Shown piece by piece: positions 44,233 through 49,039 of a stretch of DNA of 64,000 nt. The DNA is taken from NCBI GenBank assembly GCA_964013425.1, contig CAXGWC010000002.1:22818-86817 (forward strand), given 5' to 3'. The position numbers were made by a program, and so were the translations under genes. The notes beneath the pieces were generated by a model, which was not told where the DNA came from, did not search any database, and worked only from the letters and a program-made list of their open reading frames with translations. Within the stretch, counting starts at the first letter, position 1, and the number at the start of each line of letters is the position of its first letter. This DNA comes from an uncultured Candidatus Poseidoniales archaeon (GTDB lineage Archaea; Thermoplasmatota; Poseidoniia; Poseidoniales; Thalassarchaeaceae).

Positions 44233-44541
44233 TTATCCGAACAACGAGCCGAGACCTTCGAAGCCACCATCCTCTTCCTCAGGCTCCTCTTCAACTGCGG
44301 CCTCAGCAGGAGCTTCAGTAGCTCCTCCAGCGGCAGCAGGTGCGGCGCCCGAAGCAACGGGTGCGGCTATGGCAGTAGCCATGGCTTCTCCGATATCCAC
44401 GGATCCCAACGAAGCGACCAGTGCCTTAACACGGGCGCTGTCAGCATCCACTCCGGCGGCGGTTAGCACAGCGCTAACGCCATTCTCGTCAATCTCTTTC
44501 TCGGCCGAGTGCAGTAGCATTGCAGCGTATACATATTCCAT
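44233..44541 (-). CDS. rpl12: 50S ribosomal stalk protein P1 (aP1/L12)
   Basis: [22 protein letters not shown]... with acidic tail ending [15 protein letters not shown]. Start at the internal ATG preceded by GGTGA; the longer ORF (to 44721) overlaps rplP0. Confidence 0.85.
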
Positions 44542-44557
44542 TTTTTCACCTTCTTTT

Positions 44558-45598
44558 TCATCCGAAGAGGTCGCCAAGTCCACCGAACCCAGCTTCCTCC
44601 TCTTCCTCCTCTTCCTCGGAAACAGCTTCACTTGCTGTATCCTCTGCCGCTTCTGAGGCCGCGGCACCAACACTCGACGAGACCGTCGCCGCACCGAGTG
44701 CTGCGACAAGCTCTTCGTCAAGAGCTGAGGAATCTAATCGGCTAGCTAAAGCCATAGCGTGCGCGTTGGCGCGGGAAATTATGACGGAAGCCGTCTCATC
44801 ATTGACGACTCCAGCCTCCAAGGCAACGGAAAGAGCCTCGCTACTCGCCTTGGATAATAGTGCAGGCATTGTAGCAATGGAGAACCACTGAACATTGAAT
44901 GCCAGGTTGAATGCACCTGAGGTGGCCTGGATTATGTCATTTCTGAGCCCATCAGTATCAAGATCTAGCTCGGATGAGGAAAGAACCTGACCGTCGTCTA
45001 TAACTCCCATCAGTATGAGGCCAATTTCTATCGGGTTGATTCCTAGTTTGGAAAGCATCAAACCGAGCTCCCCCTCTATTGGATCTCCCTTGTTCACAAC
45101 AGTGACAGTTTTCTGAATGGCAACAGCCCCCTTGTCTATCTTTGCTGGGATTCCAACGGCATTGAACTCACCGACTATAGGGCCAGGACCAAACTCAGTT
45201 GGCCCCGCTTCGACGATTATATCCTCTGGAGCAATCTCTCCTTCCTTGGCTGCTCTACCCTGCCTTGTCTTTTCGAGCTCATCGAATAATTCGTAGCAGT
45301 TGAGCGAGTCAGTATGTACAACACATGGCTGTATCGCTCCTTCGAGCAACGTCTCAAGATTCTCCTCAGATAGTCCGGCCTCTTTCCAAGCCAACCTAAT
45401 CAGGCTCTTCTTGGCCATGGTCATCGTCAGCATACCTCGTAGAGAGCTTCTCATATCTAGCATATTCTTCGCGGGTACTCCTGAGATATCTACCACACCG
45501 ACGATCCCTTCTCTCCCAACTATGTCTTTCAGCTCATCAACACGGTCGGGCTTCCAACCAGCTACTTTGGGAATCAACCAATCACCTCGACCTTGCAT
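44558..45598 (-). CDS. rplP0: 50S ribosomal protein uL10 (P0)
   Basis: P0 fold, tail [18 protein letters not shown]. Start taken at [17 protein letters not shown], which aligns with archaeal P0 N-termini (alternative ATG at 45628). Overlaps the rpl1 3' end by ~25 nt. Confidence 0.85.
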
Positions 45599-46218
45599 GA
45601 TGGGCCCATGGATGTCTTGACGTAGCAAGATCTGATGTTTCCTGTGCCCCTCTCAAGCCTGCTCATGACCCTATTCCAAATCGCCATTGCGTTAAGAGTC
45701 AAGTCATTAAGGCCCTGCTCTCTGGAACCGAGTGCTGCATGGAATGTGATTTTATCTCTAGATCTAACAACTGCAGTATCCTTCAGTCCATTAGCAATCA
45801 TAGCGGGATCGACATTTGGTGGTACAGGCCTCGGCATCTTCCCTCTCGGTCCTAGAACAACCCCAAGGAACCTACCTACTGTACCCATGTGAGGTATCTC
45901 TGACAAGAAAAAGTCGTACTTATTTGCCATTTTCCTAGCCTGCTGACGGTTTCCCCCTATGTCCTCGATAGTCATAGGATCTATGACATCCAACCCCGCG
46001 GCCCTCGCCTTTGCAGACATCTCTCCACCAGCGAACATTGCAATCCTGACAGGTTTACCTCTGCCGGATGGGAGTCTTACCTCTTCTTGAATTCTGTTTG
46101 CTGGATTCTTCAAATCAACATCCTTGAGTGTGAATGAGATTTCTACTGACTCTACGAACTTTCGCTCGGGAGATTCCTCTAAGGCTTGTTGAATAGCGGT
46201 CTGTATATTTTCCTTCAT
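45574..46218 (-). CDS. rpl1: 50S ribosomal protein uL1
   Basis: 214 aa; ...YVKTSMGPS...VEVIG C-terminus and L1 core motifs. Confidence 0.9.
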   Translation of the reverse strand: MKENIQTAIQQALEESPERKFVESVEISFTLKDVDLKNPANRIQEEVRLPSGRGKPVRIAMFAGGEMSAKARAAGLDVIDPMTIEDIGGNRQQARKMANKYDFFLSEIPHMGTVGRFLGVVLGPRGKMPRPVPPNVDPAMIANGLKDTAVVRSRDKITFHAALGSREQGLNDLTLNAMAIWNRVMSRLERGTGNIRSCYVKTSMGPSCKVEVIG

Positions 46219-46272: not shown

Positions 46273-46551
46273 TCAAGCGAAATGCTCGGCAAAATCCCCC
46301 TTGCTCATAGCACTAAGGGCGTCCTTAGGAGACATCCCTTCAATATTTACCCGCATTGAAACACAGGTTCCCATAACCTCTCTGCATCTTGCGTAAAGCG
46401 TTGCACCGGTCAACCTGTCCTTCTGGTCTTCAGCCAGCTTCTTCACCTGTTCCATGGTGAGGTTCTCAGTGGCCTCTTCCCACGATCCATTGCACTTTTT
46501 CTTACCAAGTGATTGGATGATCATGTGAGGAGTCTCATTACGTGCTGACAT
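46273..46551 (-). CDS. rpl11: 50S ribosomal protein uL11, C-terminal (rRNA-binding) domain only; N-terminal domain not encoded in place
   Basis: NLTMEQVKKLAED...REVMGTCVSMRVNIEGMSPKD...DFAEHF aligns with the L11 CTD. Only 79 nt separate it from the spt5 stop, and the frame is closed by TAA at 46648-46650. Confidence 0.7.
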   Translation of the reverse strand: MSARNETPHMIIQSLGKKKCNGSWEEATENLTMEQVKKLAEDQKDRLTGATLYARCREVMGTCVSMRVNIEGMSPKDALSAMSKGDFAEHFA

Positions 46552-46630
46552 ACTAAATCCCCCTATTGAGTGCCCCGCCGACCTGCTTTCCCTATTTGAG
46601 AGTGATGCAAACCGATGATTCCTCCAAACC

Positions 46631-47530
46631 TCACTCCATTCTCTGTGTTACTCTTACTTGATCGGCCCTGATGTTGAGTGCCACAGGTACAGCTGCTTCG
46701 AATAATTCTACGGTGACCTCTTCCTTTGACTCACTTACTCCAATCACACGAGCCGCGGCGCCCTTGAACGCGCCTCCACGGATTTCAACTATGTTTCCTT
46801 CCTCTATTCCCGATGTTGCCGCCTTTGGCTCTAGATATGGTAGTATGTCCATCAGAGGGGACTCTCCATCCAGAACCTTTCGACAATTCTTCATTGGGGT
46901 AGCCGATACTCCAACCCTTCCTATTAGCTTCTCAACATGATGGATTGCTGTAGCCTCAACAAAAATGAACCCCTTCAGGTAGCTAGGGCTCAGCACTCCG
47001 AAGATCTTGTCTTGTATGTCTTGAAGGGAGCCGGTTCCAGAAAGTCTAGCTCTGATCTCTCTCGCGACATTCTGTTCTTGTCCCATACTAGTTTTGAGGA
47101 TGTAGAGGAAAGATGCGACGTCACCGTACATGTTCCCCAGTTGGGGTACCATGTACCTCGATGATCTGCTTTCGGATGAGTCATCGGGCTCTACCCAGTT
47201 GATGTAACCTGGATCGACCCAGCTGTGATTCTTGTATAGTCCTCTGGAATTAACCTCTTCCGTGTCGCTGAGGAATAGAAGAGGGGTGACATCGTTCAGA
47301 CGGTTTCCGAATTCTAGTCCCCTGGCGTCCCCGGCTCTAATGAACGTCAGACTCTCCGGGGCAATTCCAGTGGTTTCCTCGATTCTGGCGGCAACAACGT
47401 CAAGGTCGTTGGAGTCCCCAACGCCGTAGACACCATCCCATGCTCCAGCGAAGTCTGAGACTTCGTCGGCACGTTGCATCAGTAGAACTTTCTCTGCGTG
47501 GCGGATATAGGCAACAAAAGCATCTGACAA
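46631..47530 (-). CDS. spt5: transcription elongation factor Spt5 (NGN + KOW) with a ~130-aa N-terminal Nudix-fold-like extension
   Basis: Residues ~140-299 show an Spt5 NGN start (ILKTSMGQEQNVAREIRARL) and KOW (GNIVEIRGGAFKG). The in-frame upstream 133 aa carry a degenerate Nudix box GAWDGVYGVGDSNDLDVVAARIEETTGI and run from 14 nt after the secE stop. Confidence 0.7.
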   Translation of the reverse strand: MSDAFVAYIRHAEKVLLMQRADEVSDFAGAWDGVYGVGDSNDLDVVAARIEETTGIAPESLTFIRAGDARGLEFGNRLNDVTPLLFLSDTEEVNSRGLYKNHSWVDPGYINWVEPDDSSESRSSRYMVPQLGNMYGDVASFLYILKTSMGQEQNVAREIRARLSGTGSLQDIQDKIFGVLSPSYLKGFIFVEATAIHHVEKLIGRVGVSATPMKNCRKVLDGESPLMDILPYLEPKAATSGIEEGNIVEIRGGAFKGAAARVIGVSESKEEVTVELFEAAVPVALNIRADQVRVTQRME

Positions 47531-47543
47531 ATCTCATCCCTCC

Positions 47544-47807
47544 TTAGTTAGTTAACCAGCTGAAGAAGTCGGGCAACAAAGTGTCCATACCCCAAAGCAT
47601 CACGAATCCTATTAGTCCGAGTACAAGCATTCCAATTCCACAAACTATCACTGTCTGCCTGAACTCTTGCTTCGAAGGCTTTCTGGCCATCTTCAAGATT
47701 CTGGCATATGATCCAGTTTGAAGGCCCTTGATTCTGCCTTCTATGCCATCCTGCCATCCCTGCACAGTGTCTTCTACCACACCAACATTGGAACTTTCAA
47801 CACCCAT
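47544..47807 (-). CDS. secE: protein translocase subunit SecE (Sec61 gamma)
   Basis: ARKPSKQEFRQTVIVCGIGMLVLGLIGFV; canonical position upstream of spt5. Confidence 0.8.
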   Translation of the reverse strand: MGVESSNVGVVEDTVQGWQDGIEGRIKGLQTGSYARILKMARKPSKQEFRQTVIVCGIGMLVLGLIGFVMLWGMDTLLPDFFSWLTN

Positions 47808-47887: not shown

Positions 47888-49039
47888 CTATCCAATGAAC
47901 TCTACGGTCCTGCTCCTCAGATTCCTCATTTGAGTGTGCAATGCCGCACCATGAATCTGCTCGCTCTTGACTCCTGTGAGAACTAACAGTACTCTAATTC
48001 CATCTCCCATATTCGGGTCCGTTGTAGCTCCCCAAATTATCCTCGCATATGGATTGATTTTATCTCTAATTATTTTCGCACAGGACTCGGCATCCCCTAG
48101 TGAGAGACTTGGTCCTCCCACGACGTTTACCAAAGCACCTCTTGCATCTGAAACATCAATATCCAGCAGCGGAGATTGCAAAGCCTCCTCAGTAGCTGCC
48201 GCTGCCATTCCCTCTCCTCGGGCCTCTCCAAGACCAATCATTGCAACTCCCCCGCCGTTCTCCATAACAGATCGGAGGTCCTGAAAGTCAAGATTGACAA
48301 CCCCTTCCTTCGCAATCATCTCAGAAACTCCCTTGATACTACGCATGAGTAGCTCATCCGCTACTCTGAATGCTGCATCGAGTGGTAACTCTCTAACGCC
48401 CTCAACCTCTAGTAATCTCTCATTCGGAAGAACCACAACGGTGTCACAAACCTCTCTGAGCCTCTCAAGTCCCCACTCGGCATTCTGCCTCCTCAGTGCC
48501 CCTTCGGAAAGGAACGGATAGCTAACCACTGCAATCGTCAAGGCCCCAGCGGCCCGGGCCAGTCTGGCTACTACGTGAGCACTGCCAGTCCCAGTGCCAC
48601 CTCCGAGTCCGGCTGTGATGAAAGCCAGATCACATGCTTCAATCTCTGCTTTCAACGATCTCTCGGACTCGTAGGCGGCCTGCTCTCCTTTTTCGGGATC
48701 TCCTCCAGCGCCCCTGCCTCGCGCTGATCTCCCAATCAGTATCTTGTTTTGAACGGCTACTCGCAACAAGTGCTGCGCATCAGTGTTAACTGCTATGCCT
48801 CTGACGTAGTCGTCGTCGAACAAATCCTCATGCTCTAGTCTTGCTACAGTGTTGGAACCACACCCTCCACAACCGAACACTCTGATCTTTGGTTGTAAAG
48901 ACATCAAAAGGCTCTGTAGCTCCGGATCGCTCTCTGTGTCTATTCGTCCAGTGGGCAATTCGGACTCTTCATCAAGCTCCAGAACTCTGTTGATGAGATG
49001 CTTCACGGAGCCGAGGCGAGTATTACAGAGGATAACCAT
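47888..49039 (-). CDS. ftsZ: cell division GTPase FtsZ
   Basis: Tubulin signature GGGTGTGSAHVVARLAR, T7 loop, GCGGCGSN. Confidence 0.92.
   Translation of the reverse strand: MVILCNTRLGSVKHLINRVLELDEESELPTGRIDTESDPELQSLLMSLQPKIRVFGCGGCGSNTVARLEHEDLFDDDYVRGIAVNTDAQHLLRVAVQNKILIGRSARGRGAGGDPEKGEQAAYESERSLKAEIEACDLAFITAGLGGGTGTGSAHVVARLARAAGALTIAVVSYPFLSEGALRRQNAEWGLERLREVCDTVVVLPNERLLEVEGVRELPLDAAFRVADELLMRSIKGVSEMIAKEGVVNLDFQDLRSVMENGGGVAMIGLGEARGEGMAAAATEEALQSPLLDIDVSDARGALVNVVGGPSLSLGDAESCAKIIRDKINPYARIIWGATTDPNMGDGIRVLLVLTGVKSEQIHGAALHTQMRNLRSRTVEFIG

What the first reader, a model, noticed from the sequence alone, without database searches (positions are those of the whole stretch)
46273..46650. 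rpl11 encodes only the C-terminal domain; the N-terminal (factor/thiostrepton-binding) domain is missing
The 92-aa ORF aligns along its whole length with the L11 C-terminal rRNA-binding domain. The residue motifs are given in the feature entry. It begins about where the inter-domain linker would be. Upstream there are only 79 nt before the spt5 stop, and the L11 frame is closed by TAA at 46648-46650. The ~65-aa N-terminal domain therefore cannot be encoded here in any frame without massive overlap. The spacer contains ggg aaa gca ggt (GKAG), reminiscent of the conserved GGKATAGPP of the L11 N-domain. That suggests a decayed remnant, or an internal deletion or assembly collapse of ~120+ nt. Either a genuinely truncated L11 in this lineage or an assembly artefact would matter.
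Basis: seen in the sequence. Interest (0 to 1): 0.55.

Follow-up and report, generated by a model that had tools for sequence, protein, structure and literature searches.

The report
Naturally half-size ribosomal protein L11
This marine archaeon, and every sampled member of its order (Marine Group II, Poseidoniales), encodes only the RNA-anchoring half of ribosomal protein L11, and this is a conserved feature under selection rather than an assembly error.

Summary
The 92-aa ORF at 46273-46551 (minus strand) is the C-terminal rRNA-binding domain of uL11 and nothing more. It matches positions 73-158 of the 164-position archaeal L11 model. Its predicted fold superposes on M. jannaschii L11 (TM 0.86, 1.4 A). 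It is not an artefact. More than 100 protein clusters from hundreds of independent marine assemblies have the same length. In 76 of 76 complete loci from GTDB species genomes of Marine Group II, a 91-107 aa CTD-only gene sits just upstream of L1 (downstream of Spt5 in the window), and its frame is closed upstream. dN/dS is about 0.05. An N-domain profile that detects E. coli L11 at 8e-17 finds nothing in the 64-kb window or in 559 kb of related loci. The "GKAG remnant" is part of a conserved TATA-box-like promoter motif, not decayed coding sequence. Best reading: an order-wide loss of the factor- and thiostrepton-binding N-domain that leaves a minimal L11. CTD-only L11 genes also follow Spt5 in a marine Woesearchaeote, an Aigarchaeote, an Aenigmarchaeote and one unclassified metagenome contig. 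I could not test whether an N-domain is encoded elsewhere in these genomes. I found no literature report.

The parts
46273..46551 (-). uL11 gene reduced to the C-terminal rRNA-binding domain (92 aa; ATG at 46549-46551, stop at 46273-46275)
   Evidence: Pfam PF00298 only. NCBIfam L11 model positions 73-158 of 164. PDB profile hit to P. furiosus L11 residues 74-158, E 1.3e-13. AF2 model and Foldseek match to 5d8h_C, TMq 0.86. dN/dS median 0.052 among 76 orthologues.
46552..46630 (-). 79-nt spacer between the Spt5 stop and the L11 start; no coding capacity for an N-domain
   Evidence: Three-frame translation shows stops in every frame. The N-domain HMM finds nothing here.
46576..46600 (-). Conserved promoter-like motif CTCAAATAGGGAAAGCAGGTCGGCG: TATA-box-like core plus downstream block.
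   Evidence: An anchored consensus over 70 MGII loci gives TtAAATAggGgaAGcAGGTCGgC, with the motif start 44-49 nt (one locus at 58 nt) upstream of the ATG. RNAalifold predicts 0 consensus pairs. Promoter function is inferred, not shown.
46557..46563 (-). Shine-Dalgarno-like GGGGGAT, 5 nt upstream of the ATG
   Evidence: Read from the sequence. GGAGG/GGTG-type blocks sit at the same place in related loci. Inferred.
46631..47530 (-). Spt5 (299 aa): N-terminal Nudix-fold extension (aa 1-140, 47111-47530) plus NGN and KOW domains. It is the upstream neighbour, and its intact C-terminus bounds the space available for L11.
   Evidence: Pfam NGN aa 142-204 and KOW aa 245-275; TIGR00405 aa 143-297. 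Nudix fold from the AF2 model and Foldseek.
45574..46218 (-). uL1 gene, 54 nt downstream of L11; probably co-transcribed with it
   Evidence: PF00687, E 8e-42. No TATA-like motif in the 54-nt gap and a GGAGGTG before the ATG. Co-transcription is inferred.
44558..45628 (-). uL10/P0 gene with the archaeal insertion domain and an acidic tail. The exact start codon is uncertain because the listed ORF overlaps the end of L1.
   Evidence: PF00466, PF17777 and PF00428.
44233..44560 (-). P1/aL12 stalk protein gene (approximate start)
   Evidence: ORF translation [11 protein letters not shown]...[14 protein letters not shown]. In one search (L001-L003) the 101-aa ORF at this position has no Pfam hit; the PF00428 neighbour seen is in the Woesearchaeota loci (L004-L006), on the opposite strand. 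Assignment rests on the sequence and its position after L10.

Best explanation
The organism is a Marine Group II archaeon (order Poseidoniales, family Thalassarchaeaceae). Its uL11 gene has lost the whole N-terminal domain. The start codon now sits at the former inter-domain linker. A promoter-like element directly upstream is inferred to drive an L11(CTD)-L1-L10-P1 operon. The remaining 92-aa protein is the three-helix, homeodomain-like module that binds helices 43/44 of 23S rRNA. By inference it still does L11's structural job: locking the tertiary fold of the GTPase-associated centre and helping the P0/P1 stalk bind cooperatively. Lost functions are the mobile N-domain 'switch' that contacts elongation and release factors and the P0 protuberant domain, and the protein half of the thiopeptide (thiostrepton/micrococcin) pocket. 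Shown here: domain content, fold, lineage-wide conservation, purifying selection and absence of an N-domain near the locus. Inferred: incorporation into ribosomes, the promoter, loss of thiopeptide binding, and genome-wide absence of the N-domain.
For: Domain content and boundaries. Fold: the AF2 model (pLDDT 85, pTM 0.77) matches archaeal L11 in the P-stalk base complex 5d8h_C (TMq 0.86, rmsd 1.4 A). It also matches laboratory CTD-only constructs bound to the 58-nt rRNA (1hc8, 1mms_B, 1y39). Lineage-wide: one search lists >100 clusters at 61-99% identity, nearly all exactly 92 aa, named Poseidoniales or Thalassarchaeaceae. An exhaustive HMMER search with cluster names shows three MGII subtypes of 92, 93 and 101 aa, 44-49% identical to each other, all starting at the linker. 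No full-length protein carries an MGII-type CTD. GTDB species genomes: 76 of 76 complete loci, plus one cut by a contig end, are CTD-only. Stop-to-stop frames are 93-158 aa, and 18 loci leave at most 5 codons open upstream of the start. Selection: NG86 dN/dS median 0.052 over 299 pairs with dS 0.1-1.5. The N-terminus MSxRxETPH is invariant in the window-type clade. Canonical synteny FtsZ-SecE-Spt5-L11-L1-L10-P1 holds. The N-domain HMM is negative in the window and in 559 kb of loci (best E 0.7), while it detects E. coli L11 at 8e-17. Literature: the CTD is the domain that binds and stabilises the 58-nt GAR RNA, and the NTD raises thiostrepton affinity 100-1000 fold and carries the resistance mutations (PMC1802607). 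The NTD contacts factors, and uL11-null yeast are viable but slow (PMC9122527, PMC2175356). L11 and the L10 stalk bind archaeal rRNA cooperatively, probably through RNA ordering (PMC1635324).
Against: Genome-wide absence of an N-domain, whether free-standing or fused to another protein, was not tested; only the window and homologous loci were searched. No expression, proteomic or ribosome-structure data exist for this uncultured group, so incorporation into ribosomes is inferred from synteny and selection. The CTD is unusually divergent: only 77 library representatives reach E<1e-3, identity to canonical archaeal L11 is 33-38%, the canonical EKGSG loop is replaced by KKCNGSW, and SMG is replaced by SMR. 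A modified rRNA-binding mode or an altered role therefore cannot be excluded.
Confidence: 0.75

Rival explanations
1. Split gene: the N-domain survives elsewhere in the genome as a separate small protein or fused to another protein, and joins the ribosome in trans.
For: Whole genomes could not be searched, so only 64 kb plus 559 kb of homologous loci were tested. Split genes are known in some reduced archaea (general knowledge).
Against: No N-domain signal in the window, the stalk-protein neighbours or the Spt5 extension. In MGIIa loci the ORFs inserted between Spt5 and L11 have no Pfam hit. The N-domain has little rRNA affinity of its own and depends on its tether to the CTD (established knowledge; PMC1802607 describes weak, variable NTD-RNA contacts). 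At least four other archaeal lineages show the same CTD-only gene, which suggests the domain is simply dispensable.
Confidence: 0.12
2. The 92-aa gene is a repurposed or decaying paralogue and a canonical full-length L11 is encoded elsewhere.
For: The CTD is very divergent from canonical L11. NCBI annotates it as 'hypothetical protein'.
Against: It occupies the orthologous slot between Spt5 and L1 in every genome sampled. dN/dS of about 0.05 is incompatible with decay. Duplicated r-protein genes are rare in archaea (general knowledge). No full-length relative of this CTD exists among 1.84 billion representatives.
Confidence: 0.05
3. Assembly artefact: a collapse or deletion of ~200 nt, or a frameshift, in this MAG.
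For: None found. It was a reasonable prior for a single window.
Against: The identical architecture appears in hundreds of independently assembled contigs from different projects and assemblers, and in 76 of 76 complete GTDB species loci. Sequence divergence down to 44% preserves the same start point.
Confidence: 0.01
4. The upstream 'GKAG' string is a vestige of the N-domain left by an internal deletion.
For: Four residues resemble the GGKA of the N-domain motif.
Against: The string is part of a nucleotide-level conserved TATA-like motif at fixed distance from the ATG in both MGII families. Only 17 of 76 loci have 'GKA' in any frame of the 150 nt upstream. Stops interrupt all frames, and no PPLGPALG follows. 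The N-domain HMM scores nothing there.
Confidence: 0.03

Closest known systems
Canonical archaeal uL11 (e.g. M. jannaschii L11 in PDB 5D8H/5COL, P. furiosus L11 in 4V6U)
   Same: C-terminal domain sequence family (PF00298), fold (TMq 0.86, rmsd 1.4 A), archaeal-type extra C-terminal helix, and gene position after Spt5 and before L1-L10-P1.
   Different: Lacks residues ~1-72, the whole N-terminal domain (PF03946) with the GGKAxxGPPLGPALG motif. The rRNA-contact loop EKGSGxP is replaced by KKCNGSWE and SMG by SMR. Only 33-38% identical. Scores 58.5 bits against the NCBIfam equivalog cut-off of 162.
Laboratory L11-CTD fragments (L11-C76; PDB 1HC8, 1Y39, and the CTD chain of 1MMS)
   Same: Same domain boundaries to within a few residues, and structurally superposable (rmsd 1.2-1.6 A over 66-67 columns). 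These fragments bind and stabilise the 58-nt GTPase-centre RNA on their own (PMC1802607).
   Different: They are engineered bacterial truncations used in vitro. Here the truncation is the natural, selected gene of a whole archaeal order.
L11-deficient or N-domain-mutant strains (thiostrepton/micrococcin-resistant bacteria; yeast rpl12a/b double deletion)
   Same: They show that cells can live without the L11 N-domain or without all of L11, and that loss or alteration of the N-domain abolishes high-affinity thiopeptide binding (PMC1802607, PMC2175356, PMC9122527).
   Different: Those are laboratory mutants with growth, fidelity or stalk-assembly defects. The MGII state is ancient, fixed and under purifying selection in an ecologically dominant group.
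Lineage-specific ribosomal protein losses in uncultured prokaryotes (e.g. uL30/bL9/uL1 in CPR bacteria; cited from general knowledge, not checked here)
   Same: Reductive evolution of the translation apparatus, recognised from metagenome-assembled genomes.
   Different: Here one domain of a universal protein at a functional centre is lost, not a whole peripheral protein. No report was found in the searchable literature.

Membership tests
uL11 (ribosomal protein L11) family | C-terminal rRNA-binding domain (Pfam PF00298) | tested here: met
   PF00298 at E 7.3e-8, 33.2 bits against a cut-off of 21.4. PDB profile hit to L11 chains at E 1.3e-13.
uL11 (ribosomal protein L11) family | N-terminal factor/thiostrepton-binding domain (Pfam PF03946) | tested here: not met
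   No Pfam hit. The alignment to the L11 equivalog starts at model position 73. The upstream frame is closed and the spacer is 79 nt. The N-domain HMM is negative in the window and 559 kb of loci, with positive controls at 8e-17 to 3e-39.
uL11 (ribosomal protein L11) family | Full-length equivalog score (NCBIfam PRK01143 / TIGR01632) | tested here: not met
   58.5 bits against a cut-off of 162, and 19.3 bits against 141.85. This is why NCBI labels the protein 'hypothetical'.
uL11 (ribosomal protein L11) family | Three-dimensional fold of the CTD (homeodomain-like three-helix bundle plus the archaeal C-terminal helix) | tested here: met
   AF2 model with pLDDT 85. Foldseek matches 5d8h_C at TMq 0.86 and rmsd 1.4 A, and 4v9f_I at TMq 0.82.
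uL11 (ribosomal protein L11) family | Orthologous gene position in the archaeal SecE-Spt5-L11-L1-L10-P1 cluster | tested here: met
   Gene order in the window. The same order holds in MGIIa loci, and the CTD gene lies just upstream of L1 in 76 of 76 complete GTDB loci.
uL11 (ribosomal protein L11) family | Binds helices 43/44 of 23S rRNA and is part of the 50S subunit | not testable with these tools
   No MGII rRNA, ribosome structure or proteomic data were available. This is inferred from fold, synteny and dN/dS of about 0.05.

The most novel reading that the evidence does not exclude
Ribosomes of the whole order Poseidoniales, among the most abundant archaea in the surface ocean, work with no uL11 N-terminal domain at all. 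The universally conserved 'switch' at the GTPase-associated centre would then be dispensable in nature. These ribosomes would lack the protein half of the thiopeptide pocket and be intrinsically insensitive. The same loss has occurred independently in a marine Woesearchaeote, an Aigarchaeote, an Aenigmarchaeote and the organism of one unclassified contig.
Probability: 0.6. Interest if true: 0.72.

Novelty: new variant of a known kind. Interest (0 to 1): 0.62.

Why it matters
uL11 is a universal protein. Its N-domain is treated as an integral, mobile part of the site where elongation, release and rescue GTPases dock, and it is the protein target of thiopeptide antibiotics. A natural, ancient, order-wide deletion of that domain in a globally abundant archaeal group has several consequences.

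- It is a natural experiment on which L11 functions are essential. Only the rRNA-folding and stalk-anchoring role is retained.
- It predicts an intrinsically thiopeptide-insensitive ribosome.
- MGII genomes should systematically lack the L11 N-domain model (PF03946) in marker-gene completeness estimates. The protein fails NCBI's L11 equivalog cut-off and is labelled 'hypothetical'.
- It offers a testable minimal L11 for hybrid-ribosome assays.

If an N-domain turns out to be encoded elsewhere, a split universal r-protein would itself be unusual.

Tried and rejected
**Ideas tested and rejected**
- Assembly collapse or frameshift: rejected by hundreds of independent assemblies and 76 of 76 complete GTDB loci.
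- Longer ORF from an upstream alternative start: stop-to-stop frames are only 93-158 aa and not conserved, and 18 loci leave at most 5 codons open upstream of the start.
- Read-through or fusion from Spt5: L11 is in a different frame and further stops follow the Spt5 stop.
- N-domain hidden in the Spt5 N-terminal extension: rejected. That extension is a Nudix fold and the N-domain HMM is silent on it. The weak ubiquitin similarity is probably spurious.
- N-domain in the ORFs inserted between Spt5 and L11 in some MGIIa loci: no Pfam hit and no HMM hit.
- 'GKAG' as a coding remnant: rejected in favour of a conserved TATA-like promoter motif.
- Conserved RNA structure or leader in the spacer: RNAalifold gives 0 pairs. 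Rfam finds only one tRNA in the window. A superficial resemblance of the spacer to the 23S GTPase-centre sequence was noted from memory, but it is confined to the window-type clade and was not testable without MGII rRNA.

**Things that could not be settled**
- Locating the phylogenetic boundary (Marine Group III and other Thermoplasmatota): the GTDB scan kept only the 80 best of 331 L1 relatives and all were MGII. Cluster names of the full-length hits were uninformative.
- P0135, a 91-aa protein with an MGII-like N-half and a eukaryote-like C-half on an 822-bp contig, looks chimeric and was ignored.
- Seven of the nine literature searches run (MGII/Poseidoniales + L11, uL11 + truncated + archaea, PF03946, Ribosomal_L11_N, uL11 + Thermoplasmatota, L11 + DPANN) found no prior description.
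- The search for relatives of the Woesearchaeal CTD-only protein found only two clusters, so that case is a narrow lineage.

Full report
**1. What is at the coordinates**

On the minus strand the window carries the archaeal cluster FtsZ (47888-49039), SecE (47544-47807), Spt5 (46631-47530), a 92-aa ORF (46273-46551), L1 (45574-46218), L10/P0 (44558-45628) and P1 (about 44233-44560).

The 92-aa ORF hits only the L11 RNA-binding domain PF00298 (aa 8-67, E 7e-8). It aligns to positions 73-158 of the 164-position archaeal L11 equivalog (E 8e-16, 58.5 bits against a cut-off of 162). The protein therefore begins at the inter-domain linker.

The spacer to the Spt5 stop is 79 nt. The L11 frame is closed by TAA at 46648-46650. 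All three frames of the spacer contain stops. Spt5 is in a different frame and its KOW domain is intact.

**2. Is it L11-CTD beyond chance, and does it fold?**

A profile of 27 orthologues hits P. furiosus L11 (4v6u, residues 74-158 of 164, E 1.3e-13). It also hits M. jannaschii and H. marismortui L11.

An AlphaFold model (pLDDT 85, pTM 0.77) has the expected helices. Foldseek places it on M. jannaschii L11 in the P-stalk base/thiostrepton complex (5d8h_C, TMq 0.86, rmsd 1.4 A over 88 columns). It also matches the laboratory CTD-only fragments bound to the 58-nt rRNA (1hc8, 1y39, 1mms_B; rmsd 1.2-1.6 A).

**3. Artefact or real?**

The word-indexed protein search returned 156 clusters, of which 120 were listed. 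Nearly all are exactly 92 aa, at 61-99% identity, and the named ones are Poseidoniales, Thalassarchaeaceae, Thermoplasmatota or 'Euryarchaeota' MAGs. Single sequences are seen on up to 476 contigs, and contigs reach 794 kb.

The exhaustive HMMER search of 1.84 billion representatives found three Marine Group II subtypes:
- MSARNETPH...KKCNGSWE, 92 aa (the window type);
- MPKPWTS...KCNGS, 93 aa, on 316 contigs;
- MSDNWT..., 101 aa.

They are only 44-49% identical to the query, yet all start at the linker. No full-length protein has an MGII-type CTD.

Using L1 as an unbiased anchor, I fetched 80 loci from different GTDB species genomes, all MGII and covering both families.
- Three loci lack upstream DNA and one is cut by a contig end.
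- In the remaining 76, the gene upstream of L1 is CTD-only: 91-107 aa from the first in-frame ATG, one with a GTG start.
- Stop-to-stop frames are 93-158 aa, and 18 loci leave at most 5 codons open upstream of the start.

Nei-Gojobori dN/dS among these genes has a median of 0.052 over 299 pairs with dS 0.1-1.5. The N-terminus MSxRxETPH is invariant in the window-type clade.

This is a real, old gene under purifying selection in the whole order. It is not a collapse and not a pseudogene. The window organism belongs to Thalassarchaeaceae (MGIIb) according to the names attached to its Spt5 and L1 clusters.

**4. Is the N-domain nearby?**

I built an HMM from seven full-length archaeal L11 N-domains. 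It detects held-out archaeal, eukaryote-like and E. coli L11 at 3e-39, 2e-11 and 8e-17. It finds nothing in six-frame translations of the 64-kb window (best E 2.5) or of 559 kb of fetched loci (best E 0.7).

In some MGIIa genomes extra ORFs lie between Spt5 and L11, but they have no Pfam or HMM signal.

The rest of any MGII genome could not be reached with these tools. That is the main open point.

**5. The 'GKAG remnant'**

Upstream regions from both MGII families share a nucleotide motif, TtAAATAggGgaAGcAGGTCgC-like, consensus TtAAATAggGgaAGcAGGTCGgC. It starts 44-49 nt (one locus at 58 nt) upstream of the ATG. A GGAGG/GGTG block follows a few nucleotides before the start codon.
- Only 17 of 76 loci have 'GKA' in any frame of the 150 nt upstream.
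- There is no conserved reading frame.
- RNAalifold finds no consensus pairs.

A TATA-like box about 27 nt upstream of a short Shine-Dalgarno-containing leader is the standard archaeal promoter layout (general knowledge). In one clade a GC-rich hairpin follows the Spt5 stop and precedes the motif. I therefore read it as the promoter of an L11-L1-L10-P1 operon. This is inferred, not shown.

**6. How it most likely works**

Established knowledge: the CTD is the part of L11 that binds and stabilises the 58-nt GTPase-associated RNA. The NTD is a mobile module that contacts EF-G/EF-Tu/RFs, raises thiostrepton affinity 100-1000 fold, and carries the resistance mutations (PMC1802607). In eukaryotes and archaea the NTD also touches factors and the uL10 protuberant domain. 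uL11-null yeast are viable but slow, with fewer P1/P2 proteins on the ribosome and more misreading (PMC9122527, PMC2175356). Archaeal L11 and the L10 stalk bind rRNA cooperatively, probably through RNA ordering (PMC1635324).

Inference for MGII: the 92-aa protein keeps the rRNA-chaperone and stalk-base role, and factor docking relies on rRNA and the P0/P1 stalk alone. MGII ribosomes should lack high-affinity thiopeptide binding.

Whether resistance, genome streamlining or drift drove the loss is unknown.

The CTD has diverged unusually fast since the loss. The KKCNGSW loop replaces EKGSG, and SMR replaces SMG. L11 identity between MGII subtypes is 38-52%, while L1 from the same loci stays at 68-72%. 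This hints at a re-tuned rRNA interface.

**7. Comparison with what is known**

It works like, and superposes on, the engineered L11-C76 fragment. By domain, fold and synteny it is an orthologue of uL11. It fails two defining features of the family as curated, namely the N-domain and the equivalog score, so it is best called a domain-truncated uL11.

I found no description of this in 7.7 million open-access papers and bioRxiv, using seven different queries. Subscription literature was not searchable.

**8. Wider occurrence**

The exhaustive search also surfaced CTD-only L11 genes with closed upstream frames immediately after Spt5 in four other places:
- a marine Woesearchaeote (89 aa, overlapping the Spt5 stop; 141 contigs up to 448 kb, but only two 90% clusters);
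- an Aigarchaeote (100 aa);
- an Aenigmarchaeote (138 aa, with a Lys/Glu-rich tail);
- an unclassified contig (94 aa).

These have canonical loop motifs, so they look like independent losses in narrow lineages. MGII is the only order-level case seen.

**9. Verdict**

'Genuine truncation' is supported, 'artefact' is rejected, and 'remnant' is rejected. It is a new variant of a known protein. It is moderately to highly interesting for ribosome evolution, and its practical consequences for annotation and completeness estimates are easy to check. The residual risk is an N-domain encoded elsewhere, which I put at about 0.1-0.15.

Noticed in passing
window 47111-47530 (minus), aa 1-140 of Spt5 (ORF 46631-47530): Spt5 carries a ~140-aa N-terminal Nudix-fold domain fused to NGN-KOW. 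The AF2 model has pLDDT 76. Foldseek top hits are Ap4A hydrolases and the RNA 5' pyrophosphohydrolase RppH, at E 4e-7 and TMq ~0.6. The Nudix box is degenerate (ARIEETTGI against REUXEEXGU). Pfam finds nothing. The fusion is conserved in MGIIa (304 aa) and MGIIb but absent from Spt5 of the other archaea looked at. It might link a 5'-end or nucleotide-binding module to transcription elongation.
   Followed up: partly
window 46576-46600 (minus); same position in L012-L090: A 25-nt DNA motif (TtAAATAggGgaAGcAGGTCGgC) starts 44-49 nt (one locus at 58 nt) upstream of the L11 ATG and is conserved across both MGII families. It is more conserved than the L11 protein itself. The TATA-like core suggests a promoter. 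The strongly conserved GC-rich block downstream of the TATA box is unusual and could be a regulator binding site.
   Followed up: partly
L004-L006 (4001-4270), L007 (3001-3303), L008-L009 (3001-3417), L010 (3001-3285): CTD-only L11 genes sit directly after Spt5, with closed upstream frames and no N-domain within 3-4 kb. They occur in a marine Woesearchaeote, an Aigarchaeote (GCA_033581295.1), an Aenigmarchaeote (with a Lys/Glu-rich C-terminal tail) and an unclassified JGI contig. These look like independent, narrow-lineage losses of the same domain.
   Followed up: partly
L002 3008-3884; L003 1232-3349: In some MGIIa genomes two ORFs without Pfam hits (161 and 129 aa) are inserted between Spt5 and the L11-CTD gene, and in one genome a C5-epimerase-like gene as well. 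The Spt5-L11 junction is therefore a variable insertion point. L11 keeps its own upstream motif in these loci.
   Followed up: no
P0118; P0137-type proteins in L055, L058, L059 and others: Some MGII L11-CTDs carry lineage-specific insertions. One has 22 aa between helices 2 and 3. The 101-aa subtype has about 9 aa in the rRNA-contact loop. This shows continued remodelling of the domain after the N-domain was lost.
   Followed up: no
window 45574-45628: The listed L10/P0 ORF starts at a TTG that overlaps the last 55 nt of L1. The true start codon is probably further downstream. In MGIIa the L10 gene starts 12 nt after the L1 stop. The start was not resolved.
   Followed up: no
P0135 (822-bp ENA contig): A 91-aa protein has an N-terminal half that is MGII-type (KCNGSWEAATENL) and a C-terminal half that resembles eukaryotic RPL12 (IARIMRPRS...EIP). 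It is probably a chimeric short contig.
   Followed up: no
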